Virus record (IMG/VR): IMGVR_UViG_3300030419_001717
Location: 6,373-70,372 of that record
Reading direction: 5' to 3' (one strand)
Length of the DNA: 64,000 bases
Origin: a virus
Each line of letters opens with the position of its first letter. Within the stretch, counting starts at the first letter, position 1. The notes beneath the pieces are model-generated. The model was given only the letters and a program-made list of their open reading frames with translations, made no database searches and had not been told where the DNA came from. Below, piece by piece: positions 11,944 to 33,120 of this stretch. The position numbers and the translations under genes were made by a program.

Positions 11944-12354
11944 CTATTTATCACTGCTATTTTCGAACACCGTAATCTTTGCATCCTTTGGGAGTTCTAA
12001 GCTCCATGGAGGCACATACCCTGTATCGCATGAACAGTTATGCATCCCGTGTTCACAAATACAGCTTGTTACGACTGTGACATTTTCTCCTTTGGTCTCT
12101 CGTGCTATTTTGAGCAAAATGAGATATCCTATCAAATCGTCTAGTGTATCTTCTGTTGCATCATCGAGCCCATTGTTTTTAATTCTAGAGAGTTTATCGT
12201 CGATACGTGCACAGATGGCCTGTGCGTTATCGAGCTTACTAAAAATATTATCAGGCTCCAGAGCTGAATCTCCATAAGCCTTGTTCTTGCTTAAGAGCAA
12301 GTCGCGAATCTCATTACAAGTCCACTTGATATTATTCTGCGTTTTTTTCGACAT
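11944..12354 (-). CDS. Nucleotide modification-associated domain 1 (DUF1599-like) protein
   Basis: KNKAYGDS...RIDDKLSRI...DTLDDLIGYLIL; C-terminal CxC..CxC. Confidence 0.8.
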   Translation of the reverse strand: MSKKTQNNIKWTCNEIRDLLLSKNKAYGDSALEPDNIFSKLDNAQAICARIDDKLSRIKNNGLDDATEDTLDDLIGYLILLKIARETKGENVTVVTSCICEHGMHNCSCDTGYVPPWSLELPKDAKITVFENSSDK

Positions 12355-12633
12355 AGTTTTTTCACTAAAAGTAGTAACTACTCAGAGTATATAAAACTTT
12401 CTGTTAACATAACATATAGACATATTAGCCTGCCTTGAAATGCTTACTCTATATAATATATCTATATAGCTATTACTCTATTAAGATACTACTTTCAAAA
12501 TTTACCCGATTTGTTTAGACCCCTACACGACATATGACACCATGGCCCCCTCGTGATTTTAGACGGGGGGTGGAAAAAAAATAAGATAAAATAATAATAG
12601 TACTAAATAAATAATAATTACAAAAATATGTAA

Positions 12634-12730
12634 GCGGGACGTATATCGCACTATATATACTCCCTCGTTCCTTATATACTAAAACCAGCGATACCCTTAT
12701 ATACTTGGTTGCTATAAGTAATATAGAGGT
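12634..12730 (+). promoter_or_regulatory. Multi-TATA early promoter module 1
   Basis: TATAT-N5-TATAT..-N13-TTATATAC-N17-TTATATAC-N6-GCTA-N11-GAGGT. Confidence 0.75.
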
Positions 12731-12737
12731 AAAAGAA

Positions 12738-13059
12738 ATGACAACAACCGTAACACAACAGCAAGTAGCACAACACAACAAGGCAGTAATAGCCCGTGTA
12801 GTAGCCCAACACATTTGGGCCCAGACCAGTAGGGTAGCTACTACTACCAGACACAGCCAATGGAGTAGGTAACTATGAAATGGCTTGAGGTAGGTAGCCT
12901 ATCCGTAGGTGACCCAGAAGAGGTATTAGACAAGCTTAATGCATTACTAACTAAAACAATAAATGAAGCACAAAAACAAATGGAGGAAAAGAAATGAACT
13001 ATAGAAACTTTTTAGTAAACTACTTAGTAACAGTATCTTACGCAACCCGTAAGCTGTAA
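12738..13059 (+). CDS. Three coupled micro-ORFs: 12738-12872 (44 aa), 12875-12997 (40 aa), 12994-13059 (21 aa)
   Basis: GAGGT SD after module 1; near-abutting or ATGA-overlapping junctions. Confidence 0.6.
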
Positions 13060-13226
13060 ACAGTAAGCCGTCCCTAAGTCGGGACATGTCCTATATTGTA
13101 CCATGTCCACATATGCCTACCCCCCTAGGCACCCCCCCTATACCCCCCCATGCCATAATTCTACCATGCGCCCACTTTTTTTTATTTATTTATTATTTTG
13201 TGCTTAGCTTTTTTTGTAAACATTGA

Positions 13227-13323
13227 GCGGGCTGTATATAGGGGTATATAAGGTAAGAGGAGCCTTATATACTGTTTAGAGACAAAGCTTTATATACTCT
13301 CTCGCTACAAGTATAATAGAGGT
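13227..13323 (+). promoter_or_regulatory. Multi-TATA early promoter module 2
   Basis: GTATATAA-N13-TTATATAC-N17-TTATATAC-N6-GCTA-N11-GAGGT. Confidence 0.8.
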
Positions 13324-13330
13324 AAATACA

Positions 13331-13681
13331 ATGACTAATCAAACGTATACAACAAATAAAACCGGCTTTATCGTCTTTGACGGTAGAATAATGTCAATTC
13401 ACAATTTTTGGATTGAAGTAATGGGTTCCAGAATGGAAGGCACAAATTCCCTTTATTGCCACACCGTAGGCTGGGCAAACTTGCACAGCTTTGGAACTAA
13501 ACACGGAAGTCTTGACGACTCCGAAGTTTGGAACGTAATAAATAGCGTAGGTGCTAAGTTCGTCTTATACCCTTCCCAAAAACCAGACAGGTATAACACT
13601 TGGGACGGCGGACGCTGGGAACAGAAAATGCTTGAACTTGGAGCAATGGAAAATGGCTGTTATCAAATGGGGGACTTTTAA
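13331..13681 (+). CDS. Hypothetical early protein
   Basis: 116 aa with a GAGGT SD. Confidence 0.75.
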   Translation: MTNQTYTTNKTGFIVFDGRIMSIHNFWIEVMGSRMEGTNSLYCHTVGWANLHSFGTKHGSLDDSEVWNVINSVGAKFVLYPSQKPDRYNTWDGGRWEQKMLELGAMENGCYQMGDF

Positions 13682-13906
13682 ATGAGCTGGACAGAAACAC
13701 CGGCCGAAGTATTCCGCCGAAATCAAGAACGCAAAGCTAAAGAAATGCAAACAGCAATGACGACAAGCGAGTTAAAGGTAGCTATTGACTCGCTACGCTT
13801 TGATATAAGTAAACTTAACACTTGGAACGTAAGAAGTCCTAACGATATAGAATACTACGACGAAGTCCTCGCACAGCTAAGCTGGAGGTTAGAACGTGGT
13901 ATTTGA
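13682..13906 (+). CDS. Hypothetical early protein
   Basis: 74 aa, abuts the previous stop. Confidence 0.7.
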   Translation: MSWTETPAEVFRRNQERKAKEMQTAMTTSELKVAIDSLRFDISKLNTWNVRSPNDIEYYDEVLAQLSWRLERGI

Positions 13907-13972
13907 ACTAATAATGGTTTTCTTCGCACTAATAGAAGTTTATACTTTTATAAAAGCAATGGAGGGATAGAA

Positions 13973-14086
13973 ATGTTAAAGTTTAATAGTAGGTGGCGCA
14001 AGCTCGCCAAAGATATAAAGCCCAAAAAAAAGAAAGAACCAGAAAGCTGGAACGCCGCCGACTTCATTTTTCACGTCGATAAATAA
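13973..14086 (+). CDS. 37-aa basic microprotein
   Basis: GGAGG SD; MLKFNSRWRKLAK... Confidence 0.55.
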   Translation: MLKFNSRWRKLAKDIKPKKKKEPESWNAADFIFHVDK

Positions 14087-14122
14087 AGTTGGCACATGGT
14101 CGATTTTTTCAAAAAAGTGCGT

Positions 14123-14219
14123 TCGGGTTCTATATTGGGGTATATAAGTCCCCACGACGTTTATATACTAATTTGACCCAAACCTTTAAATACTTTCTTG
14201 CTACAGGTATTATAGAGGT
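14123..14219 (+). promoter_or_regulatory. Multi-TATA early promoter module 3
   Basis: GTATATAA-N13-TTATATAC-N17-TTAAATAC-N6-GCTA-N11-GAGGT. Confidence 0.8.
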
Positions 14220-14228
14220 AAGAGACCA

Positions 14229-14333
14229 ATGTCAAAATCAAAATTCAAAGGAACGCGTTTTACAATAGCAAGTCCTGAAGCAACCAAAATGTGGAAGGCT
14301 GTTAAAGAGTTAAAACGTTTATACGCAAAATAA
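14229..14333 (+). CDS. 34-aa basic microprotein
   Basis: MSKSKFKGTRFTIASPEATKMWKAVKELKRLYAK, directly after module 3. Confidence 0.6.
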   Translation: MSKSKFKGTRFTIASPEATKMWKAVKELKRLYAK

Positions 14334-14364
14334 ATTAGGTTTAAAGGGGTAGCTCCCCTTTATC

Positions 14365-14840
14365 GTGAGTGGCTGAATAATCCCTTCCCAAAGGGGATAA
14401 GGCACACAACACCCTTGACCAACGGACAAGTGTCTGAGGGATAGGTGAGTGGTAGGCGCGGACACAATACTTAGGTATTTGGGCCGGTGGTCCTTGTGGG
14501 TTAACCTTGAATCCCACCTCACACCCGCTTAGGGGAACCGTGGAAGCTATCGACTGCTTCCCGACCTAAAAAGATGAAAATAGCAAAATAGTATTGCAAC
14601 CCTAAGCACCTTATTGTTATTGCTGATTGCAACAGCTTTAATAGTCGGGTATAATCCGACTTAAAATAATGTCTGTCGCCGGACAACGAATGGCGAAGCG
14701 TAAAACAGCACACAGGTTAAGAGTGTTGCTTCCTAATCAGTTAGGGACACAAGAGCTTGTGTGACTGGAGTGACTATAGCACTCGCGGTTGGAAGCCCGT
14801 GGTTAGCGTGAGGGGTTCTGGAGCACCCCAACAGACAACC
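14365..14840 (+). ncRNA. Candidate large structured ncRNA 1 (about 475 nt)
   Basis: No plus-strand ORF; more than ten hairpins and long-range stems (GTGAG/CTCAC, GCTTAGGG/CCCTAAGC, TGTCTGT/ACAGACA); immediately upstream of the tRNA. Confidence 0.65.
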
Positions 14841-14853
14841 TTATTATTCTAGT

Positions 14854-14929
14854 GGAGTCGTAGTGTAGTGGCCCAGCATTTAAGGCTTTCGACCTTAAGA
14901 CCCGGGTTCGAATCCCGGCGACTCTGCCA
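14854..14929 (+). tRNA. tRNA-Glu (anticodon TTC)
   Basis: 76-nt cloverleaf: acceptor GGAGTCG/CGACTCT, anticodon arm TAAGG-CTTTCGA-CCTTA, T arm CCGGG-TTCGAAT-CCCGG, encoded CCA. Confidence 0.95.
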
Positions 14930-14969
14930 GCTAAAATTTGACCATGCGCCAATTTTTCAAAAACAGTGA

Positions 14970-15067
14970 CCGGAACCTATATCGCAGTATATAAACCCCC
15001 TCGATACTTATATACCTTTTTGAGAGAAACCTTTAAATACTCTCTCGCTACAAGTAAAATACGAGGT
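14970..15067 (+). promoter_or_regulatory. Multi-TATA early promoter module 4
   Basis: GTATATAA-N13-TTATATAC-N17-TTAAATAC-N6-GCTA-N12-GAGGT. Confidence 0.8.
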
Positions 15068-15074
15068 AATACAA

Positions 15075-15677
15075 ATGAGTTTCAAAGAAAATATAAAAAG
15101 AAATAAGTTTAGATTTAGGAAAGCTCCAATTAGGAGACAACCGGAAAATAAAATAGACAGTGGAGTCTTAGACCAGCTTAAAGCTAAAAGATTGGGGTTG
15201 ACCGAATGAGAGACGAGCTTTGGGAATTGGCTAATGATTTTCATTACGAAAACAGCGGAGCAACCGGAGAAGAAAACCTTCACCACGAAAAATGTGAATG
15301 GGTTTACGGTAATTGCACCTGCGGTAAAGCTGAAGAATTACAAATAAGATACGATTACGAGGACGACGGTGATTACTAATGAGTGAACACAACGTATATA
15401 ATTGGACCGACTTCTTATTGTGTATAGGAATGGAACTCGCCTACTATAAGAATGGCGAACGTCCTATCCAAGAACAAATGATAGCAGAAAAATTAATAGA
15501 AATAGGAGGTATAAAATAATGTTAGTAAGAAAGACAGACGCAGAGCTTATAAGAAAAGGTTTTGAAGAAGACGACCTAGTCTGCGATTCGTGTAAAGACG
15601 CTCACGCTACGTCAAGGGCAAGCCACGACGAAGTGTGCACAGATTGTTTTTACGAAATCTACGACGGGTGCCCTTAA
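15075..15677 (+). CDS. Four coupled micro-ORFs: 15075-15209, 15206-15379, 15379-15519, 15519-15677 (last is a CxxC-CxxC zinc finger)
   Basis: ATGA/TAATG overlaps at every junction; hand-translated at 44, 57, 46 and 52 aa. Confidence 0.7.
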
Positions 15678-15737
15678 ATTGGGCCATGTGCAAACCTTTA
15701 TTAAGGAGGTCGCTATAGGTATATCAGAGGTCAAACA

Positions 15738-16016
15738 ATGACAGATAATCAAAAGAAAACAACAACGATTGAGAAGCCCTATGAAATTTGGGTGGATAAG
15801 CACGGAGCCGGTTTTGAGTGGAGAGTATTAAAGAAATACCAAAAACCAGAACTGGAAGCAAAGAACCAATACGCCCGGTGGTTCTGTGGTGTTAAGTCAC
15901 CGTATACTTACGGAGAATTTGAATTAGGAGACGTTTACGTTTCAGAAATTAAATCAATGGCTACCAAGATAATAGAAGGCGCTGACGAATGCGCTGACTG
16001 GATAGCTAACCACTAA
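15738..16016 (+). CDS. Hypothetical early protein
   Basis: 92 aa; preceded by a single-TATA version of the module (CTTTATTAAG, GCTA, GAGGT). Confidence 0.8.
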   Translation: MTDNQKKTTTIEKPYEIWVDKHGAGFEWRVLKKYQKPELEAKNQYARWFCGVKSPYTYGEFELGDVYVSEIKSMATKIIEGADECADWIANH

Positions 16017-16034
16017 GAGTTAACAACCTCTAAC

Positions 16035-16068
16035 GGGGTGGTTTCAGGAGCCGAATTCCGACCACCCC
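16035..16068 (+). terminator. GC-rich hairpin after the ORF
   Basis: GGGGTGGT...ACCACCCC inverted repeat. Confidence 0.45.
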
Positions 16069-16097
16069 AAAAGTTAGACCATGTGCGAAAATTTTAT

Positions 16098-16476
16098 AGG
16101 TCACTTCGGAGGGAGCCCCTATATAAGGGGTTGGGCGTCCCACTTTAACTCCCTCCTGATAAGACCTTTTGTCATTGTAAGGGTGGGCCTGTGAGACTTC
16201 AAACGGTTTCCCGTCACGAGAGTTTCAATTTAATTAGTGAGAACCATTGACACAACGATTAGTTTAAGGTTTAAGTAATAGGGAAGGATTCAACGTTTCG
16301 TATTTCCTCGAGTAGTTTGAGAAAGGGCGTCCTACGGCACTTTAAATAATATACTCCTAACAAGTGACTAAACGACATTGATAGAGGGACGGCTACGCAT
16401 TTATATCTAAACTTTAATATCTAATTTGCGAGTGGTGACTAATTAACAGGCCCGTTTTATCGAGCTCTGATAAATA
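16098..16476 (+). ncRNA. Candidate large structured ncRNA 2 (about 380 nt)
   Basis: ORF-free; nested stems GGAGGGAG/CTCCCTCC, GGGCCTGT/ACAGGCCC, TAATTAGT/ACTAATTA, GTAGTT/GGCTAC; G-U pairs favour the plus strand. Confidence 0.55.
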
Positions 16477-16481
16477 TAATT

Positions 16482-16500
16482 GGGGAGGAATCGCCTCCCC
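16482..16500. terminator. Hairpin between convergent units
   Basis: GGGGAGG-AATCG-CCTCCCC. Confidence 0.5.
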
Positions 16501-16514
16501 TACGTTTTAGTTAT

Positions 16515-16868
16515 TTATTCCATTGCTTCAAGCTTAGCTTTAAGCTCAGTCAATGAAATTCTTCCAGACTTTACAGCAGAAATTATACTTTCCGGCGTTG
16601 CGGACACTTTACCAGCTCCGAGTCTACGGGAAGCCTGTAAATCTATAATTCGACTTGTAATAGCTGAAGTAGTTTTATTAAACTCTTCAACACTCAAGAC
16701 GTCATTTAGAGCTACGAGGGTATCGTATTTAACTCCGACGGGTAGACGGCCCCCCTCTGACGCAGTGAATCCAAGCAAAGACATTAAGTTCTTTACTATT
16801 CCACTGTTGCGAGGTGCGGACAAATAATCCATTGCTGTGCTTTTCTGGGTTTCAGTTGTTTTTGGCAT
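16515..16868 (-). CDS. Hypothetical protein, lone minus-strand gene in the early region
   Basis: 117 aa with AGGAG SD and its own TATA (CTTTATATAC near 16910-16920). Confidence 0.75.
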   Translation of the reverse strand: MPKTTETQKSTAMDYLSAPRNSGIVKNLMSLLGFTASEGGRLPVGVKYDTLVALNDVLSVEEFNKTTSAITSRIIDLQASRRLGAGKVSATPESIISAVKSGRISLTELKAKLEAME

Positions 16869-17039
16869 TTTTTACACTCCTTTTCTGGTAAATTACAGAA
16901 GGTTTGAAAGTATATAAAGCTTGTGGTAGAAATCATATATAAAGCCCCTCGACCCTTTTATACCCCTGTATAGCTTCCGCTCACTACTTTTCGTTTTATC
17001 CGCACATGTGTAGATTTTAATACATGCAGTGGTATAGAG

Positions 17040-17460
17040 TTTATATCTTTAGCTCAATTAGGCTCTATAAAAACCTATCGGTTATAACGTCGTAATCGGT
17101 CGGTGAGAAATTTATATTTTTTAGGTGCTTAATGGAGCTTATAAACTTTATATTACTTTTTGAAAGCTCTATATCGCTCGTTGACTGGCTCTACTACGCA
17201 CAGCCCCCGTGAGAAACTGTATAAGGCACTGAGTTTCTTTCGTAATAGAGCATTTTCTTTTATACGTTTGCGTTAAAAAAAATACTATAAACAATACGTT
17301 GCTCTAATATTATAATTAAGCTCTATTAAGATATTAATAGGCTCTATTAAGCAATATATCTTTTGCTCTATTAAGATATATAATTATAGACCTATATAAA
17401 GCTTGTTCTAATATAGCTCTTAATAGAGCCTTATCTTAATATAGTTTAATATAGTCTCCC
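17040..17460. repeat. AT-rich region with GCTCTATTAAG-type repeats, candidate replication origin
   Basis: Direct copies near 17320, 17341 and 17365, an inverted copy near 17418, and several degenerate GCTCTA copies. Confidence 0.5.
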
Positions 17461-17584
17461 GTTTTTTTATAAGTGTGAGCGGGATTTGCATACCTTTAGC
17501 GTTGAGCACAAGTCTATACGTTTAGACCCCAAAAACCGCCGAAAGACTTAAATACTTTGAAACCGTCTATTATTTAGGTTAAAA

Positions 17585-17833
17585 ATGAGACAATCCAACG
17601 CCGAAATTAGAAAAATGCTTAGTGATATAACTCCAGAACAACTGCTATCTTTAATGGCAGAGATAAAGGGTAATGGAGTTAGAAAGATTGACACTTCAGT
17701 AAGGGAACGTAGGAACCAAAAGACTGCACTATACTTTAGTGTAGCACCACTACCTTACAAGTCAACCTACGAAGAATATAAAATGCACTCCGATAGTATA
17801 AGAGAGCAGGTTATATCAGGAGTAGATTTATAA
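17585..17833 (+). CDS. Hypothetical protein
   Basis: 82 aa, with a TTAAATA TATA box upstream. Confidence 0.7.
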   Translation: MRQSNAEIRKMLSDITPEQLLSLMAEIKGNGVRKIDTSVRERRNQKTALYFSVAPLPYKSTYEEYKMHSDSIREQVISGVDL

Positions 17834-18007
17834 TGTTATACGATACACCTTACGGTAGCTATACGTATAAAGAATTAATGGAGATAGTAAACGAACAATG
17901 AAACAAAGATTAGAAATGAGATATCCCTCAGCCAAACTAAAACTACTACTAATGAGAAAGTATCAAGATAGAATGGGTGACGGTAAGAACTATCAAAAGG
18001 ATGAATA

Positions 18008-18355
18008 ATGAGTGAGATAACGTTAGAAGATATAAGGTCAATGATTAGAGGTAAGAATAGATTCTCTTTAATCAGTGTAGATAATGACAGTGATAAGCAT
18101 TACCAAACTTGGGCTACGCTTGTGCAAAAGGTGTATCCTAATACAGGTGATAACTTATACGAAACACAAAGAGGAATGTCACGTATAAGGGAAACCCTTA
18201 GCGTAATGGAGCCTAATGATTTTAATAAGATAGTTAATACTCTTAAGAAATACGAGGTTAGTGGTAGTGTAAGACCTATCAGTGGAGTAAAGACCTACGC
18301 TTACGATAAGAGTAGATTAGATAACAGAATGTATAAGAGAAAGAGGTCCAACTAA
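18008..18355 (+). CDS. Hypothetical protein
   Basis: 115-aa ORF in the operon. Confidence 0.7.
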   Translation: MSEITLEDIRSMIRGKNRFSLISVDNDSDKHYQTWATLVQKVYPNTGDNLYETQRGMSRIRETLSVMEPNDFNKIVNTLKKYEVSGSVRPISGVKTYAYDKSRLDNRMYKRKRSN

Positions 18356-18651
18356 TGGATATAATAGATAGTTATAGTGTGACGTGCAAGGTATACGTAG
18401 GTGATAAAGAAATAGACGTAGAGTTGCCAGAGTATATCTATAATAGGATAGATACGTATATAACTGAATACGAAGAGTGGTTAAGAAGCGGATAAAGATA
18501 GAATGAAATTTGATGACACTGAGTTTCTTATACTCTTAGCAACATTACTGAAAGATATAGAGGTAAGCGAAAGCTTTAAAAAGGATGAGACTATTGTTAA
18601 GGTTGACGACGCTGAGATTTTCAAAGCTGAGAAAATGTATGAGGATATAAG

Positions 18652-19959
18652 ATGAGTAGTAGAAGTGAGAAGTTTGCTAAGTTAGGTGACTTAACAACTA
18701 AGCACGTTAAGTTAGAAGATAAGAAGAGATATCTTTGTGAGAGTATGGACCGCTTAGCTGAGGATGATATACACGCTAAAGAAGAATATCTTAGACAGAT
18801 AAGCGTAATAAACGTTGAGATTTCTATATTAGAAAAAGAAATAAAAGAGGTAAAAAGTATGTATAAAGAACATAGAAGGGATGAAGAATTCCCTACCGAT
18901 AAGTATGACGAGGACATATCCCCCGATGAAGTGGATAGATATGAAGCAAGGCGTATGTTTAGAGAGTTATTCGAAGATGACTATCGAGATATAAGATACG
19001 AGCTTGACTCGGATGATTGGGAAACATTAGCTATATTTTTAAATAAAGAGATGTATACCGAAGAAGAACCAGAAGAGGAACCTGAAATAGTGATAGACGA
19101 TTCCGTATTGGGTAAGCTTAAGGCAAGTGTAGCAATACCTGAAGAATTTAAGTTTGCAGATAATATGACGTTTTACACTATGCTTAGGAATATCTTTAGG
19201 AACAAGTATATACTTGTGACAGGTCCATCCGGATGTGGTAAATCATCCTTAGGTAAGATTTTAGCAGAGATAAGTAATAAACCTTTCCATCAGTTCAACT
19301 TTGGAGACACTATGAATCCTGCGGCTAAGCTATTAGGAGACACTAAGTATAATCAAGAGGATGGAACTTGGTTTAAACCATCTCGTTTTGTTTCAGCCTT
19401 ACAAGATAACAGTGGTTCTTTCATTATGCTTGATGAAGTGACAAGAGATAGGACAGGTGACTTAGGTAATATCCTTATGCCTGTGTTAGATGGTCAAAGA
19501 TATTTAGCATTAGATGAAAGTGATGACGCAGACATAGTGAAATTGGATAGGAACGTATTCTTTTTTGCTACGGCAAACATAGGTAGAGAATATCTTGGTG
19601 CGGCCACCGACTTAGATAGAGCTTGGAAAGATAGATTCACGGGTGGTATATATGAATTAGATTATCTACCACAAAAGAAAGAACAGGAACTATTAATGGT
19701 GCGTGTTCCTTCTATTGATGAAAATGATGCACGACGTATAACTGAGTTTGCTAAGAAGATTAGAGATTTGTATAAAGCAGAAGAGTTAAACGTAGCAGTT
19801 TCTACTCGTATGTGTTTAGCAGTAGCTGAATTAGTGGTAGATGGAATGACATTGCTTGAAGCATTAAAGCACACTGTCCTACCATTTTATCCTATCACTG
19901 CTGGAGATGACACTGATAGAGTTAAAGTAATTCAAGCAATACAATCAATGGGTGATTAA
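18652..19959 (+). CDS. MoxR/CbbQ/CobS-like AAA+ ATPase
   Basis: GPSGCGKS, IMLDE, FFATAN, LDRAWKDRF and VSTR motifs; acidic coiled-coil N-terminus. Confidence 0.9.
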   Translation: MSSRSEKFAKLGDLTTKHVKLEDKKRYLCESMDRLAEDDIHAKEEYLRQISVINVEISILEKEIKEVKSMYKEHRRDEEFPTDKYDEDISPDEVDRYEARRMFRELFEDDYRDIRYELDSDDWETLAIFLNKEMYTEEEPEEEPEIVIDDSVLGKLKASVAIPEEFKFADNMTFYTMLRNIFRNKYILVTGPSGCGKSSLGKILAEISNKPFHQFNFGDTMNPAAKLLGDTKYNQEDGTWFKPSRFVSALQDNSGSFIMLDEVTRDRTGDLGNILMPVLDGQRYLALDESDDADIVKLDRNVFFFATANIGREYLGAATDLDRAWKDRFTGGIYELDYLPQKKEQELLMVRVPSIDENDARRITEFAKKIRDLYKAEELNVAVSTRMCLAVAELVVDGMTLLEALKHTVLPFYPITAGDDTDRVKVIQAIQSMGD

Positions 19960-20365
19960 TATGGCTAAAAGAGTCAGACCTAAGAAACATTTGTATTGGC
20001 ATAGTCAGGCGAAAGTCCTATTAGAACATGGAATGACTCCTACTAATGTAGCTAAAGCCTTAAAGGTAGTATACCCACAAGGGGAAATTACAGGTAGGCA
20101 CGTTGGAGGATATAAACGTAGACTAATTAACGATGATATGTTAACGAAAGGACTTCCACTTACTATTGATATGCAAGATGCAATAGGAATGGTAGAAGGA
20201 TTAGTTGGAGAAGATGATAGGTTTATCTATCATTGCACAATAGGTTCAGCTAAAAGAACACTAAAATGTTTTGAATATAAAATGTTAAAAGAATTAGTAG
20301 ATGAAAAAGCTGAAGAGGATATAGAAGAATGGTTATCAAACACGAACCACACTACACTGATATAG
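19952..20365 (+). CDS. Hypothetical protein, possible HTH
   Basis: GMTPTNVAKAL...ITGRHVGGYKRR resembles a helix-turn-helix. Confidence 0.55.
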   Translation: MINMAKRVRPKKHLYWHSQAKVLLEHGMTPTNVAKALKVVYPQGEITGRHVGGYKRRLINDDMLTKGLPLTIDMQDAIGMVEGLVGEDDRFIYHCTIGSAKRTLKCFEYKMLKELVDEKAEEDIEEWLSNTNHTTLI

Positions 20366-22482
20366 ATAGTTGGGCTGACGTAGCCGACGACGATTACTGC
20401 TACGAATGTAGTAAGTGGATTGAAGCAACATCAGAGGACTGTTGTCCTATATGTGAAACACCACTGAACTACGATGATGAGTATACGTCTGCGATGACAG
20501 CAAAGACATCATTATCTGATGCACCAAAGGTAAATACATACACCGGAGACATATGGAATCGGGGTAAGTCCTACGTTTGGGGCGGAGGTAATAGCTGGTG
20601 GAACAGTGGTAGTTCTGCATATACCGGTGGAGTATCGAGTATGTGGGGTAGTTGGAGTAGTAGTCATAATTCTGAAGATACTGCTTCTCGACTGCTTAAG
20701 CATAAGAGACATTTAGATTCTTTATGTAAAGTTGTAGACCCAACAGTAGCTCATAAGTTAGATTATAACTTTCATGGAAAAAATTATTCAGATTTGAATA
20801 GAGGAGTTATACGTATAGACGGCAGTCTACTGAAGGAAAGTGATGATAACTTAGACATATGTGCTGGTTTAGCCATACATGAAAAGTTGCATCTTATCCA
20901 TAGTAAACCATTATTGAAATGGGAAAGAGATTATAACTATTCTAATAATATGGACCACGCTGAAAAGAATTTATTACATACTATTGCTAATACAGTAGAA
21001 GATGAATATATAGAAAAGCAGTTAGCTAAAGATAATGCTGGTTTCGTGACATATATAGCTGAAGTAAAGAAACACTTCTTTGATACAGAGATGGAAGATA
21101 AGCTTCTAAAGGAAGGACAGAATGAGTTTATGGATATACTCAACACTCTGTTAGCTTTTGTTAGATGGCCTATCGAACTGAGTGCTGAACGTAAACGTAA
21201 ACATGCTAAACATATAAGATATTTCGCACGAGCATTAGCGACAGGATTAGATAGTAGAGACAATACTTTCAAATGTATAGAATCTTTGTATATGTATCTT
21301 AAAGAAATAGCTAAAAGAATGGCTAAAGAGAAAGGCGAAGAAGGTATAGATGATGAAGTTAAAGAAGAGTTAGAAAGGCTTACTGATAGTATGAGTGATT
21401 CTGATGAGATGTCTGAAGAAGAAACGGAAGCAATGAAAGATGCTATCCGTAAGAGTATAGAAAGAAAAAGAGAACGTATGTCTGATGTAGCCAAAGCGAT
21501 AGACTCTGATGAACTACGTGACTTAGCAAAGGTAGTAGACTATAACGAAAAAGCCATAGAAGATACGTTAGATGAAGAGTTAGCAGAAGCTATTAAAGAG
21601 CTTGAAGATGAAGATTTTCATGAAGAAGATATAAAGGATGTAGGTCTTATATATAAGAACCAAAGGAAAATCACTTGGCGTAAAGCACGTAGTGATGACC
21701 ATGCTAAAGATAGATATATCTTTGAATCTAAGAAGATGAAGAAACAATCTAATCAGTTAAAGCGTAAGATAGACTTATATGGTAATACTCAAAAACATAT
21801 CATACGTAATCAAAAGCGTGGTAAGATAGATAAAAGAATGCTTCATAGGATACCTGCTGGTCGTATGGATTTATTTAAGAATGATATAATTCAAGATGAT
21901 AAACCATTAGACATATGTATATTGGTAGATGAATCAGGTAGTATGGGTTCATGGAAAATGGAGATGGCCAGACAATCAGCCATAGCAACCAAAGAAGCTT
22001 TAGAAGATAACCCTAAGTTAAACTTATGGGTGTTTGGACATACAGCTGATGGTGAAAAAGGATGGCATACTGACACAGGGTCAACTAATATGACTGAATA
22101 TTATTCACCACGTATGAAAGATAGACCCTTTGCAATAGGTAATATGAGGGCCAGATATGAAAACCGTGATGGTAATGCAATATATGCGGCCGCTGAAAAG
22201 GTTAGTAAGGAATCCGAACAACCTATGTCTAACAAGCTTATGATTATATACTCCGACGGACAACCAGCCGCTGATAGATATGGTGGTATGGATAGTAGGA
22301 GACACGTAAGAAAAGTAGTAAGCTACTTAGAGGCTAAAGGATGGGCCATTATACAAGTAGGTATAAGTGGTGCAAACGAATGGTGTCAGAAAGAAATGTT
22401 TACTAATCATATAATGGTTAATGATATAGAGAATCTTGCTCCAGAAGTAAGTAAAGTAATAAGGAGGGTGATAAAAGTATGA
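20329..22482 (+). CDS. VWA-domain protein (CobT-like MoxR partner) with HExxH motif
   Basis: MIDAS DESGSM, SDGQP, HEKLH...EDEYIE, and an N-terminal CxxC..CPxC. Confidence 0.88.
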   Translation: MVIKHEPHYTDIDSWADVADDDYCYECSKWIEATSEDCCPICETPLNYDDEYTSAMTAKTSLSDAPKVNTYTGDIWNRGKSYVWGGGNSWWNSGSSAYTGGVSSMWGSWSSSHNSEDTASRLLKHKRHLDSLCKVVDPTVAHKLDYNFHGKNYSDLNRGVIRIDGSLLKESDDNLDICAGLAIHEKLHLIHSKPLLKWERDYNYSNNMDHAEKNLLHTIANTVEDEYIEKQLAKDNAGFVTYIAEVKKHFFDTEMEDKLLKEGQNEFMDILNTLLAFVRWPIELSAERKRKHAKHIRYFARALATGLDSRDNTFKCIESLYMYLKEIAKRMAKEKGEEGIDDEVKEELERLTDSMSDSDEMSEEETEAMKDAIRKSIERKRERMSDVAKAIDSDELRDLAKVVDYNEKAIEDTLDEELAEAIKELEDEDFHEEDIKDVGLIYKNQRKITWRKARSDDHAKDRYIFESKKMKKQSNQLKRKIDLYGNTQKHIIRNQKRGKIDKRMLHRIPAGRMDLFKNDIIQDDKPLDICILVDESGSMGSWKMEMARQSAIATKEALEDNPKLNLWVFGHTADGEKGWHTDTGSTNMTEYYSPRMKDRPFAIGNMRARYENRDGNAIYAAAEKVSKESEQPMSNKLMIIYSDGQPAADRYGGMDSRRHVRKVVSYLEAKGWAIIQVGISGANEWCQKEMFTNHIMVNDIENLAPEVSKVIRRVIKV

Positions 22483-26581: not shown

Positions 26582-27184
26582 ATGAAAGAAGTGATGAGAA
26601 AATATAGCACCACATTTTTTGAATGTATGAAAGATTGGCCTGAACATATTAAACAAGACATATATAAGTTATATGCCTATCTAAGAGTATGTGATGAAGT
26701 AGTAGAAGGTCAAGAGGACTACAGTGCTAGTGAGAAAATGAAGATAACTAAAGAGTTCCATGAAGTATTTGATAGGTATGAGATGGAAGGTAAGTGGCTT
26801 GATTCATTCCATCATGCTATGTTAACTGATTTAAATAAAAAGAAACATACTATAGTGTCAATGTTAGAATACTGTAAAGGTTCTTCTGAGACAGTAGGAC
26901 TTATGATGTCACGTATCTTAGGGTGTCCACCTGAAGCAGATGAATATGCAAAGGCTTTGGGTAGAGCATATCAAATAATAAACTTCGTTAGAGATTATGA
27001 AGAAGACATAGAGAAGGGATATCATTATATAGGTGAAGACCATACATTATACCTATTACTCTTTATAGAAGAGTTAGAAACAGCTATGGAAGGAATCAAT
27101 TACATACCAGAAGATTTGCGTGGTCCTATTATTAAAGCTAACCAAGCATACATAGAGGTGGCACGTGAAGCCAACTTACTATAA
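26582..27184 (+). CDS. Squalene/phytoene synthase family protein (CrtB/HpnC-D-like)
   Basis: YSTTF, LYAYLRVCDEVVE, YC.G....VGLMM and LGRAYQIINFVRDYEED..KG..YI. Confidence 0.88.
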   Translation: MKEVMRKYSTTFFECMKDWPEHIKQDIYKLYAYLRVCDEVVEGQEDYSASEKMKITKEFHEVFDRYEMEGKWLDSFHHAMLTDLNKKKHTIVSMLEYCKGSSETVGLMMSRILGCPPEADEYAKALGRAYQIINFVRDYEEDIEKGYHYIGEDHTLYLLLFIEELETAMEGINYIPEDLRGPIIKANQAYIEVAREANLL

Positions 27185-29850: not shown

Positions 29851-30222
29851 ATGGCACACCCATTAGACGACCTTATGGACGCTTGGATGGATATGATAAC
29901 TGCTAGACCACCTCGTTTCAGAGCTACACAGTTTCCAACATGGAACAATAAAGATGACATAGGAGACTGGGAAGATAAGAACGGTGAGATAACTATCACT
30001 GTCGATATGCCCGGAGTAGCGAAGAAAGATATAGAAATGCATGTTGATAAGCATTTAGTAAAGGTAGAAGCTTCTACTGAGGATAGGGATTATTCCTTCT
30101 CAAAGAAGTTTACACCTGAACTCAACCCTGATAAGGTAGAAGCTAAATTCAACAATGGTGTTCTAGATATCAAAATCCAAAAGGCTGAAGAAAGTAAAGG
30201 TAAGAAGATAAGTATTAAATGA
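29851..30222 (+). CDS. hsp20: Small heat-shock protein (Hsp20)
   Basis: VDMPGVAKKDI...AKFNNGVLDIKI.K and a C-terminal IxI. Confidence 0.92.
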   Translation: MAHPLDDLMDAWMDMITARPPRFRATQFPTWNNKDDIGDWEDKNGEITITVDMPGVAKKDIEMHVDKHLVKVEASTEDRDYSFSKKFTPELNPDKVEAKFNNGVLDIKIQKAEESKGKKISIK

Positions 30223-32487: not shown

Positions 32488-32761
32488 ACTTCCTGTTAAG
32501 GATGAACAGTTCGCTGTAGTAAGTGAGATGTCTGGGGGTTCACGATTGAAAGCTATGTGTGAGGATGGTCAAACACGCATGGTAAGAATAGGTGGTAAAT
32601 TTAAAAGAAGAATGTGGGTCAGAGAAAATGACCTTATTCTTATTAAGCCGTGGACTGTGCAAACAGAAAGTAAAGCTGATTTAGTTCATAGGTATTTACC
32701 AACAGAAAGGAAATGGATAATTAACAGAGATATAATACCAGAGGAGTTAAACATATGGTAG
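32441..32761 (+). CDS. eif1a: Translation initiation factor aIF-1A
   Basis: AVV.EM.GG.RL.A.CEDG.TR..RI.GK.KRRMWVRE.D.I...PW......KAD.V.RY. Confidence 0.93.
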   Translation: MKKNSKISNIPFRKVKLPVKDEQFAVVSEMSGGSRLKAMCEDGQTRMVRIGGKFKRRMWVRENDLILIKPWTVQTESKADLVHRYLPTERKWIINRDIIPEELNIW

Positions 32762-33120
32762 AAGAAGTAATAAACATATTAGAACCGGAATGGATGAAGT
32801 TGGGTATTGAAGCAAGTTATATGGATTTTACACGTAGAACTGCGAAATACCCTAAAGAAAAAGAAGTAGAATACCTAATGATAGGGTTAATGAATGAGGC
32901 AGGGGAAGTAGGCGGAGCCTTCAAGAAAGAGATAAGAGATAACGTAGACAATAAAGAACTCATCATAGATGAAATGGGTGATGTCTTATGGTATCTTACA
33001 CGACTTTGTGATGTGTATGATATAAGAGTATCAGACCTAATGAGAACAAACATGATTAAGTTATTTCAAAGAATGTCCCCTGAACAAGCTGAAGAGTATA
33101 GGGGAATTTCTACAGAATGA
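32755..33120 (+). CDS. MazG-like NTP pyrophosphohydrolase
   Basis: GLMNEAGEV...KK and DEMGDVLWY motifs. Confidence 0.9.
   Translation: MVEEVINILEPEWMKLGIEASYMDFTRRTAKYPKEKEVEYLMIGLMNEAGEVGGAFKKEIRDNVDNKELIIDEMGDVLWYLTRLCDVYDIRVSDLMRTNMIKLFQRMSPEQAEEYRGISTE

What the first reader, a model, noticed from the sequence alone, without database searches (positions are those of the whole stretch)
14365..14840. Ornate ~475-nt ncRNA candidate co-located with tRNA-Glu in an archaeal virus
Seen: no plus-strand ORF; higher GC than the flanks; three closed domains (GTGAG 14365/CTCAC 14518; GCTTAGGG 14527/CCCTAAGC 14600; TGTCTGT 14670/ACAGACA 14831). The last domain holds about 7 consecutive hairpins (TCGCC/GGCGA, CAGCAC/GTGTTG, TCCTAA/TTAGGG, CACAAG/CTTGTG, GAGTG/CACTC, GGGGT/ACCCC). 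Known: the large GOLLD and ROOL RNAs often lie beside tRNAs in bacterial phages. Inference: this is an analogous, possibly new large RNA class in an archaeal virus, transcribed from promoter module 3 and released by tRNA processing.
Basis: partly seen in the sequence, partly recalled or inferred. Interest (0 to 1): 0.82.

Follow-up and report, generated by a model that had tools for sequence, protein, structure and literature searches.

The report
Viral array of structured RNA modules
The stretch is a string of separately conserved folded RNAs in an abundant uncultured marine virus: a known manA RNA, two apparently undescribed RNA motifs and a tRNA, not one giant RNA.

Summary
There is no conserved ORF, GC is higher than in the flanks, and the three closed domains lie at the stated coordinates.

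- Domain 1 (14342-14527) is a divergent member of the known manA RNA family. It scores 55.5 bits against the Rfam cut-off of 55.2, and 29 of 37 predicted pairs covary among 15 viral copies.
- Domain 2 (module B, 14527-14607) and hairpin C plus domain D (14643-14837) match nothing in Rfam 15. Both are conserved in related viral contigs with strong covariation.
- In relatives the modules occur in other orders, alone, or on opposite strands. The 475 nt is therefore an array, not one RNA class.
- tRNA-Glu follows 4 of 14 distinct D copies.

Co-transcription is inferred from the promoter cassette and the T-run. One 267-nt contig from an RNA library supports it weakly. An archaeal host is not established.

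Most likely the unit makes stable, trans-acting folded RNAs, released partly by tRNA processing. This resembles the manA, ROOL and GOLLD assemblies.

The parts
14106..14214 (+). Promoter-like cassette, one of four ~109-nt direct repeats, with a TATA-box-like CTTTAAATA at 14184-14192. It is the inferred start of the transcription unit.
   Evidence: copies at 12617, 13210, 14106 and 14953, 65-72% identical to the reference copy. CTTTAWATA occurs 20 times in the window against 4.67 expected, with 0 of 100 shuffles reaching 20.
14229..14333 (+). Small ORF of 34 aa, lysine-rich, directly upstream of the RNA array.
   Evidence: Similar short basic ORFs precede the RNA modules in L004, L009 and L012, read from the sequences. 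This was not tested further.
14342..14527 (+). Module A: manA RNA (Rfam RF01745), a divergent viral clade. It includes the 5' hairpin 14342-14362 and the outer stem GTGAG/CTCAC.
   Evidence: 55.5 bits against a gathering score of 55.2, E 1.9e-11, model positions 1-192; 37 consensus pairs, 29 with compensatory changes, in 15 distinct copies; relatives score 47.4-69.2 bits.
14527..14607 (+). Module B, long form. The outer stem is GCTTAGGG/CCCTAAGC and the inner hairpin is GGAAGC/GCTTCC (14542-14561). A nearly invariant 28-nt segment at 14571-14598 contains a 4-bp hairpin. No Rfam match.
   Evidence: 26 distinct copies. In 25 of them a stem of 6-9 contiguous pairs lies next to the conserved segment; in L020 the script's best hit was a distant stem, and the adjacent 6-bp stem was read by eye. 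(18 short forms): 93.5% of cells paired against 74.9% in shuffles, and 7 of 8 outer-stem pairs compensatory. (8 long forms): 97.4% paired, 11 of 19 pairs compensatory; z -4.96.
14616..14636 (+). Linker hairpin between B and C. It is not conserved; L024 has a different GC-rich hairpin at this place.
   Evidence: Read and from the sequences. There is no comparative support.
14643..14661 (+). Hairpin C. It always precedes domain D in the D1-type copies and has a conserved AU-rich loop.
   Evidence: helix 1: 6 pairs, 4 with compensatory changes, 92.9% of cells paired. It was part of model R1.
14670..14837 (+). Domain D, a multi-branched RNA closed by the 7-bp stem TGTCTGT/ACAGACA. It has hairpin P2 (CGCC/GGCG, conserved 11-nt loop), a 4-bp stem P3 enclosing variable hairpins, a conserved hairpin whose loop reads GGAA, GAAA or GUAA in most copies, and hairpin P4 (GGGGT/ACCCC). 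No Rfam match.
   Evidence: 14 distinct copies and 42 pairs; 93.7% of cells paired against 73.7% in shuffles; 28 pairs with compensatory changes; 0 of 500 shuffles as high; slid controls 35-44%; one copy in the window (182 bits); the MFE fold reproduces the consensus, z -3.36.
14838..14844 (+). ACCTTAT tail after D. The same motif follows B at 14608-14614. CCTTAY is a shared 3' boundary motif of the modules.
   Evidence: CCTTAY lies within about 10 nt after the closing stem in 8 of 15 manA, 11 of 14 D1 and 13 of 26 B copies, 32 of 55 in all. The motif is not enriched in the window as a whole (21 found, 25.3 expected).
14854..14929 (+). tRNA-Glu (UUC) with encoded CCA, 16 nt downstream of D.
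   Evidence: ARAGORN. (RF00005, 62.9 bits); the same tRNA follows D, or D then B, in L005, L009 and L039.
14953..14963 (+). TTTTTCAAAAA, a T-run readable on both strands at the start of the next promoter cassette. It is the inferred end of the transcription unit.
   Evidence: Read. It is part of repeat D7. The same element lies at cassette starts in L004, L005 and L007. Function is inferred only.

Best explanation
The stretch is the non-coding part of one short viral transcription unit. The unit strings together independently conserved structured-RNA modules:
1. a divergent manA RNA;
2. module B, a stem that presents a nearly invariant 28-nt segment;
3. hairpin C plus domain D, a multi-branched RNA closed by a 7-bp helix;
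4. tRNA-Glu.

Shown here:
- the fold of each module, with covariation;
- manA family membership;
- absence of a conserved ORF;
- that the modules are separable and reshuffled among related viral contigs;
- that a CCUUAY tail follows most module copies.

Inferred:
- The unit is transcribed from the TATA-like promoter cassette at about 14184, through the 34-aa ORF, to the T-run at 14953.
- RNase P cutting at the 5' end of the tRNA frees the 3' end of D. Other modules are separated at or near their tails.
- The products act in trans as stable folded RNAs, most likely as self-assembling particles like manA, ROOL and GOLLD. They are not leaders that regulate a downstream gene.
For: manA membership:
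- The window scores 55.5 bits against a gathering score of 55.2, over the full model.
- 9 of 10 related records have a hit at E <= 0.01, and 4 of 10 are over the cut-off.
- 29 of 37 consensus pairs are compensatory.

Module B: 26 distinct copies. In 25 of them a 6-9 bp stem lies next to the conserved segment; L020's adjacent 6-bp stem was read by eye. The outer stems differ in sequence around 22 invariant loop positions. Pair counts beat all 500 shuffles on percentage paired and on covariation score.

C-D: 14 distinct copies; 28 of 42 pairs compensatory; 93.7% of cells paired; 0 of 500 shuffles as high; slid controls 35-44%. G-U pairs are frequent, for example 11 of 14 at one pair, which fits RNA read from this strand.

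Modularity, with the order on each contig:
- window and L024: A-B-C-D;
- L009: B-C-D-tRNA;
- L005: C-D-B-tRNA, with manA on the other strand;
- L002 and L003: A, another module, C-D, another module, with no B;
- L004: C-D, with manA 2.6 kb away on the opposite strand.

No promoter motif lies between 14192 and 15031.

All four distinct tRNAs found in the window plus 36 loci are tRNA-Glu lying directly after D or after D-B.

RNA libraries: a 267-nt contig identical to 14421-14687 bridges manA, B, C and the start of D. A 154-nt contig of a relative covers 14339-14492. Neither library had a contig on the flanking ORFs.

A preprint reports that manA RNAs form decamers and a 60-mer cage in vitro (10.64898/2026.07.01.735769, passages read). 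Another reports that ROOL and GOLLD are phage RNAs near tRNAs that form cages (10.1101/2024.12.08.627333, passages read).
Against: - Transcription, transcript ends and processing are not shown. The RNA-library evidence is two assembled contigs at depths 2 and 5.8. They could derive from DNA carried in the library, and contigs give no strand.
- A third RNA run, from a sample that holds the DNA, gave no contig.
- The manA part alone folds no better than shuffles (z -0.52), and its Rfam score is only 0.3 bits over the cut-off.
- The tRNA follows only 4 of 14 D copies, so tRNA processing cannot be the general way the modules are released.
- CCUUAY is missing after 23 of 55 module copies.
- No oligomerisation, binding partner or target was tested. 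No complement of the B loop longer than 11 nt exists in the window.
- B often lies directly after a stop codon, which also fits a 3'-UTR role.
Confidence: 0.6

Rival explanations
1. One large (~475-600 nt) ornate RNA, a new class analogous to GOLLD or ROOL, in which the three domains work together as a single molecule.
For: - In the window, L024 and L040 the domains are contiguous in the same order.
- The X19 contig from an RNA library bridges three of them.
- The whole stretch folds better than shuffles (z -3.44).
- GOLLD also has a variable 5' part and can carry tRNAs in a linker (passage read).
Against: - Only 5 of 14 D copies have manA upstream on the same strand within the array: window, L024, L040, L002 and L003.
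- In L005, L007 and L039 the manA copy lies on the strand opposite to C-D; in L004 it is 2.6 kb away on the opposite strand.
- B lies before C-D in some contigs, after it in L005 and L013, and is absent in L002 and L003.
- Each module closes on its own stem. No long-range pairing between domains appears in the consensus folds.
- Domain 1 is an existing family that folds and multimerises on its own at under 200 nt.
Confidence: 0.12
2. The modules are cis-acting elements of mRNAs. Either they are a riboswitch-like leader, which was the original proposal for manA, or they are 3'-UTR stabilisers or terminators of the small upstream ORFs.
For: - manA was proposed as a riboswitch candidate in 5' UTRs (PMC2864571, section read).
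- The array directly follows a 34-aa ORF.
- B directly follows a conserved small ORF in at least 10 contigs.
- Each module ends in a stem plus a U-rich tail.
Against: - What follows manA here is further RNA modules and a tRNA. The next ORF (15075) has its own promoter cassette.
- A simple terminator or stabiliser would not need 22 invariant loop positions or a 42-pair branched fold.
- Intrinsic-terminator-like sites are not enriched in 12000-19000: 7 found against 5.1 +/- 2.1 expected.
- The modules keep their sequence while the neighbouring genes change.
Confidence: 0.15
3. The conservation is at the DNA or protein level, not RNA: for example short overlapping genes, recombination sites of mobile cassettes, or replication elements.
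For: - Minus-strand ORFs of 58-67 aa overlap the window's stretch.
- The region lies among repeated cassettes that could drive recombination.
- Contigs of a DNA run break at module borders.
Against: - No frame is kept open across homologues.
- Compensatory changes keep the pairing: 28 of 42, 29 of 37 and 11 of 19 pairs.
- Many pairs are G-U on the plus strand, which would be C-A mismatches on the other strand.
- The plus strand folds better than the minus strand.
Confidence: 0.03

Closest known systems
manA RNA motif (Rfam RF01745; Weinberg et al. 2010, PMC2864571)
   Same: Window 14342-14527 matches the full model above the gathering score. It keeps the conserved sequence blocks and helices. 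The source is marine and viral, as for most known members.
   Different: This is a divergent clade scoring 47-69 bits. It does not lie in a 5' UTR; it heads or joins an array of other RNAs and a tRNA. The carrier is a ~70-kb tailed virus with family-B polymerase, unrelated at the DNA level to any of 50,697 deposited phage records, and not a T4-like cyanophage.
ROOL and GOLLD RNAs of phages and prophages
   Same: Virus-encoded, elaborately folded, with no known protein partner, and often beside tRNA genes (passages read).
   Different: There is no match to their Rfam models, even at E <= 10. Those are single RNAs of about 500-800 nt, whereas here there are separable modules of about 60-190 nt. 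Assembly into cages is not tested for B and C-D.
Stable small RNAs co-transcribed with the tRNA cluster of phage T4 and matured by tRNA-processing enzymes
   Same: Non-tRNA structured RNAs sit in one unit with phage tRNA genes, so that tRNA maturation would set their ends.
   Different: No sequence or fold relation was tested. Only one tRNA is present here, and most D copies have none.
tRNA and tRNA-like structures
   Same: Domain D is closed by a 7-bp helix followed by an unpaired A-C-C. It has a 4-bp hairpin next to the closing helix and a 5-bp hairpin before the 3' strand, giving a cloverleaf-like layout.
   Different: Neither ARAGORN nor the Rfam tRNA model calls it. The third arm holds a large branched insertion, and the loops lack the tRNA consensus.
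Catalogue of 8,495 candidate structured RNAs from IMG/VR (PMC10690425)
   Same: It mined the same kind of data (IMG/VR intergenic regions) for covarying motifs of 29-151 nt (passages read).
   Different: Whether module B or parts of C-D are among its entries could not be checked. The main-text passages read do not describe such an array.

Membership tests
manA RNA (RF01745) | Covariance-model score at or above Rfam's gathering score over the whole model | tested here: met
   55.5 bits against 55.2, model positions 1-192, E 1.9e-11. The margin is very small. Relatives score 47.4-69.2 bits, and 4 of 10 records are over the cut-off.
manA RNA (RF01745) | Conserved sequence blocks and helix layout of the consensus: 5' hairpin, outer stem, internal hairpins and 3' hairpin | tested here: met
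   Residue-by-residue alignment. The independent RNAalifold fold of 15 viral copies recovers these helices, with 29 of 37 pairs compensatory. The long hairpin at alignment columns ~125-170 was not recovered in that fold.
manA RNA (RF01745) | Position in the 5' UTR of a protein gene (sugar or nucleotide metabolism, ibpA, photosynthesis), as described for the family | tested here: not met
   In the window it is followed by module B, C-D and a tRNA. The next ORF has its own promoter cassette. This is a contextual trait rather than a structural one.
manA RNA (RF01745) | Forms closed homo-oligomers (decamer or 60-mer) in vitro | not testable with these tools
   Reported for other members in preprint 10.64898/2026.07.01.735769.
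GOLLD / ROOL | Match to the family covariance model | tested here: not met
   No hit at gathering level in the window. No hit at E <= 10 in 13900-15200.
GOLLD / ROOL | Single large RNA (several hundred nt) whose domains stay together | tested here: not met
   The domains are reshuffled or separated in relatives.
tRNA / tRNA-like (for domain D) | Recognised by tRNA finders or the tRNA covariance model | tested here: not met
   ARAGORN finds only the tRNA at 14854-14929. RF00005 gives no second hit even at E <= 10.
Riboswitch / cis-regulatory leader | Lies directly upstream of the regulated ORF, with an expression platform overlapping its start or a terminator | tested here: not met
   There is no ORF start within or directly after the modules. 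A tRNA and a new promoter cassette come before the next ORF.
Archaeal virus (host domain) | Evidence linking the virus to an archaeal host, such as a provirus, close cellular homologues or archaeal-type signals | tested here: inconclusive
   For:
- The TATA-box-like motif is enriched: 20 found against 4.67 expected.
- Sigma-70-like sites and intrinsic terminators are not enriched.

Against or neutral:
- NrdJ is 48-50% identical to Rhizobium and Roseobacter phage proteins.
- HSP20, MazG, CobS/CobT, Pyr_excise and RecU-like genes are present.
- The PolB query found no relative in 185,579 species genomes, and the B-loop pattern found no match there.

The most novel reading that the evidence does not exclude
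Module B and the C-D domain are two undescribed families of viral structured RNA. Together with manA they are made as a reshufflable polycistronic 'RNA operon', with or without tRNA-Glu, in one of the more widespread uncultured marine virus lineages, which may infect archaea. On this reading the shared CCUUAY tail is a common maturation or docking signal. It is the Watson-Crick complement of the UAAGG segment kept in 12 of 15 of these manA copies. The modules would form RNA-only homo- or hetero-assemblies like the manA cage. That would recast manA from a riboswitch candidate to one part of a viral RNA-particle toolkit.
Probability: 0.25. Interest if true: 0.85.

Novelty: new variant of a known kind. 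Interest (0 to 1): 0.62.

Why it matters
manA has been an orphan 'riboswitch candidate' since 2010, and a 2026 preprint reports that it builds 60-subunit RNA cages in vitro. In this virus manA sits in an array of other conserved folded RNAs and a tRNA, not in front of a gene. That argues for a trans-acting role, the same puzzle posed by ROOL and GOLLD.

The array also supplies two further covariation-supported RNA folds, each under 200 nt, which is a practical size for cryo-EM and biochemistry. The host virus lineage is found in marine metagenomes from 14 studies.

If the virus infects archaea, this would extend manA, and this style of viral RNA, beyond bacteria.

Tried and rejected
- Rfam at E <= 10 over 13900-15200 gave only tRNA, manA and two sub-threshold hits: mascRNA-menRNA lying on the tRNA, and Clostridiales-2 at 16.6 bits against 58.6. 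Neither is taken as real.
- blastn of 14300-14950 against 50,697 phage records found no match.
- Antisense target for the invariant B segment: the longest complement anywhere in the window is 11 nt, and none is 12 nt or longer. I did not run a shuffle control on this. No target is proposed.
- The ACCTTAY motif is not enriched across the window (21 found, 25.3 expected). Two hits at 17752 and 17847 lie in coding sequence, not in RNA modules.
- Host assignment. The B-loop pattern has 0 matches in 185,579 species genomes. PolB has 0 confirmed relatives there. PolB is under 25% identical to any deposited phage. The protein atlas gives only viral clusters. The RNR homologue search and cluster look-up returned no organism names. 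CobS-like and ligase searches gave only distant bacteriophage hits. The literature on marine archaeal tailed viruses gave no feature that settles the question.
- Run X21, an RNA library of a sample whose DNA holds the stretch, gave no contig.
- The idea that a helix followed by A-C-C marks RNase P substrates is my inference from general knowledge of RNase P. It is untested here and is weakened by hairpin C lying upstream of D's closing helix.
- MAFFT put the window's 5' strand of B, and the two registers of D's last hairpin, one column out. The model-fitted alignment A2 repairs the D hairpin, but it leans towards the given structure.
- Literature searches on manA and on structured phage RNAs found no description of such an array in the listings and passages I read. 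Supplementary catalogues were not visible.

Full report
WHAT IS THERE

The window is 64 kb of a 70,372-bp IMG/VR virus record that CheckV rates as complete. It is a tailed virus. It has a tape-measure-like protein, family-B DNA polymerase, CobS/CobT-like AAA and VWA proteins, class II ribonucleotide reductase, ATP-dependent ligase, HSP20, MazG, a Pyr_excise glycosylase and a RecU-like nuclease.

The finding lies in a region of small plus-strand ORFs. These are separated by four copies of a ~109-nt promoter-like cassette.

There is no meaningful plus-strand ORF. No frame on either strand stays open across homologues. GC is 0.44-0.50 against 0.32-0.40 in the flanks.

The stretch folds better than dinucleotide shuffles on the plus strand (z -3.44) than on the minus strand (z -2.02). 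Taken module by module, C-D (z -3.36) and B (z -4.96) stand out, while the manA part alone does not (z -0.52).

DOMAIN 1 IS manA

Rfam at gathering level finds two things in the whole window. One is tRNA-Glu (14854-14926 by the Rfam match; ARAGORN gives 14854-14929). The other is the manA RNA motif at 14342-14527, with 55.5 bits against a cut-off of 55.2 over the full model. The model also takes in a 5' hairpin at 14342-14362.

The score is marginal, so I checked relatives.
- nhmmer finds 15 distinct manA-like copies in related viral contigs.
- With the Rfam model, 9 of 10 related records have a hit at E <= 0.01, and 4 of 10 are over the cut-off, at 47.4-69.2 bits.
- An independent MAFFT and RNAalifold fold of the 15 copies recovers the manA helices, with 29 of 37 pairs showing compensatory changes.

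This is a divergent viral clade of manA.

The 2010 paper (section read) describes manA as a riboswitch candidate in 5' UTRs, from marine metagenomes, T4-like cyanophages and two gamma-proteobacteria. A 2026 preprint (passages read) reports that manA RNAs form decamers and a 60-mer cage in vitro.

DOMAINS 2 AND 3 ARE CONSERVED RNAS UNKNOWN TO RFAM

Nothing in Rfam 15 matches 14528-14853, even at E <= 10. Apart from manA and tRNA, nothing matches in 17 related loci at gathering level.

I reached relatives in two ways: through the CobS-like protein, and with two motif scans of IMG/VR.

Module B (14527-14607) has 26 distinct copies. In 25 of them a stem of 6-9 contiguous pairs lies directly next to a segment with 22 invariant positions. 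In the remaining copy (L020) the script picked a distant stem, and I read the adjacent 6-bp stem by eye. The stem sequences differ freely between copies.
- Short forms (18 copies): 93.5% of cells paired against 74.9% in shuffles, and 7 of 8 outer-stem pairs compensatory.
- Long forms like the window's (8 copies): 97.4% paired, 11 of 19 pairs compensatory, including the inner hairpin.

Hairpin C plus domain D (14643-14837) has 14 distinct copies of the window's type, plus 7 shorter relatives that share the core.
- On a plain MAFFT alignment, RNAalifold predicts 36 pairs, 26 of them compensatory.
- With the last hairpin added, there are 42 pairs. 93.7% of cells are paired, 28 pairs are compensatory, and 0 of 500 shuffles reach this. 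Slid controls give 35-44%.
- A covariance model built from this alignment finds exactly one copy in the window. It finds the shorter relatives at E from 1.8e-9 to 3.5e-4.
- The model-fitted alignment gives 33 of 42 compensatory pairs, though that alignment leans towards the structure.

The fold of D, from outside in:
- a 7-bp closing helix;
- a 4-bp hairpin with a conserved 11-nt loop;
- a 4-bp stem enclosing variable hairpins;
- a conserved hairpin whose loop reads GGAA, GAAA or GUAA in most copies;
- a 5-bp hairpin before the 3' strand.

IT IS AN ARRAY, NOT ONE RNA

Module order differs among relatives.
- Window and L024: manA-B-C-D.
- L040: the same order, with a short B.
- L009: B-C-D-tRNA.
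- L012, L016, L017: B-C-D.
- L005: C-D-B-tRNA, with manA on the other strand.
- L013: C-D-B.
- L002 and L003: manA, a different module, C-D, another module, with no B.
- L004: C-D, with manA 2.6 kb away on the opposite strand.
- L007 and L039: C-D on one strand, manA-B on the other.

Each module closes on its own stem. In a DNA run the assembled contigs break at module borders and differ widely in depth. That fits modules shared among many co-occurring genomes.

tRNA-Glu(UUC) follows D, or D then B, in 4 of 14 distinct D copies. These are the only tRNAs found in the window plus 36 loci.

A SHARED TAIL

CCTTAY lies within about 10 nt after the closing stem of 8 of 15 manA, 11 of 14 D and 13 of 26 B copies, 32 of 55 in all. 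The motif is not enriched in the window as a whole. The Rfam manA consensus itself ends in such a tail (alignment). CCUUA is the complement of the UAAGG segment kept in 12 of 15 manA copies. Whether the two pair was not testable, because both are nearly invariant.

HOW IT MOST LIKELY WORKS

The TATA-like motif CTTTAWATA is enriched (20 found against 4.67 expected). It lies at 14184, ahead of a 34-aa ORF. None lies between there and 15031.

A T-run readable on both strands lies at 14953, at the start of the next cassette. Sigma-70-like sites and intrinsic terminators are not enriched.

I therefore infer one transcript of about 750 nt: ORF, manA, B, C-D, tRNA. RNase P cutting at the tRNA would set the 3' end of D in those genomes that have the tRNA. 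How the other borders are cut is unknown.

Two RNA libraries hold contigs confined to the non-coding stretch. One is identical over 14421-14687 and bridges manA, B, C and the start of D. The other is from a relative and covers 14339-14492. These are contigs at low depth, without strand information, and could derive from DNA, so they are only a weak hint.

Several things point to trans-acting stable RNAs rather than cis-regulators. manA here precedes RNAs and not a gene. The modules keep their folds while the neighbouring genes change. And manA, ROOL and GOLLD are reported to self-assemble. Self-assembly is the most likely mode by analogy only. It is an inference.

HOST

The 'archaeal virus' label is not established. 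The promoter motif and the hairpin-less T-runs fit archaeal transcription. However, NrdJ is 48-50% identical to proteins of Rhizobium and Roseobacter phages. The gene set is common in marine bacteriophages. manA is known only from bacteria and their phages. Searches of 185,579 species genomes found nothing.

The lineage is common in marine metagenomes. DNA holders come from 14 studies, and more than 120 RNR clusters at 85% identity or above were listed, the most the search shows.

NOVELTY AND LIMITS

The manA part is a new member of a known family in an unusual context. B and C-D are not in Rfam 15 and do not appear in the papers whose listings or passages I read. However, a 2023 catalogue of 8,495 candidate RNAs from IMG/VR (PMC10690425, passages read) keeps its entries in supplementary files that I could not open. 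Priority for B or parts of D is therefore open.

Noticed in passing
window 12617-15061: A ~109-nt promoter-like cassette recurs four times (starts 12617, 13210, 14106, 14953). Each begins with a T-run/A-run element and carries a TATA-like box about 40 nt before a small ORF. Cassettes like this could drive the reshuffling of genes and RNA modules seen among relatives.
   Followed up: partly
window 17240-17440: A cluster of short direct repeats (units like GCTCTATTAAG and TCTTAATAGAGC) lies in the intergenic region where the gene strands diverge. It looks like an iteron array and is a possible replication origin.
   Followed up: no
L002:5057-5115 and L002:5271-5309 (also in L003, L007, L039): Two further conserved non-coding modules flank C-D in some relatives. 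One lies between manA and hairpin C. The other is a hairpin after D that recurs after manA-B in L039. Neither matches Rfam at gathering level.
   Followed up: no
L018:3810-4100, and likewise L026, L028, L031, L034, L035, L038: A second lineage carries a short B, then a ~120-nt domain closed by a long-range stem, then a compact version of D (78-79 nt), then another GC-rich hairpin. This is a different RNA array built on the same parts. The compact D scores E from 1.8e-9 to 3.5e-4 with model R1.
   Followed up: partly
L023:7770-8000, L025:9590-9830, L027 and L033 downstream of B: In other viral contigs, short B copies are followed by long stretches that look non-coding and stem-rich, and that end in the same ACCTTAC tail. 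The family of tail-bearing modules may be larger than the three studied here.
   Followed up: no
window 14854-14929; L005:5566-5641; L009:1013-1088; L039:4134-4209: All four viral tRNA-Glu copies keep a G-U pair at the top of the acceptor stem and encode the 3' CCA, while their acceptor stems differ from one another.
   Followed up: no
L002:4818-4858, L003:4730-4770, L018:3815-3850: A conserved hairpin whose loop reads like a T-arm (GGGTTTCAGGGGCCGAATCCCGACCC) lies just upstream of manA or just after B. Model R1 touches the L002 and L003 copies only weakly (E about 0.7).
   Followed up: no
window 13600-15600 in run X1: In one marine DNA run the assembly breaks into 74-142-nt contigs exactly over the RNA modules. 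Summed depth reaches about 430 over module B, against about 43-48 in the flanks. This suggests many co-occurring genomes share these modules in different contexts.
   Followed up: partly
window 26582-27184, 29851-30222, 32755-33120, 18652-22482: The virus carries a squalene/phytoene-synthase-like gene, HSP20, MazG and a CobS/CobT-like pair. HSP20 (ibpA-type) genes are among the contexts originally reported for manA, but here HSP20 lies 15 kb from the RNA.
   Followed up: no
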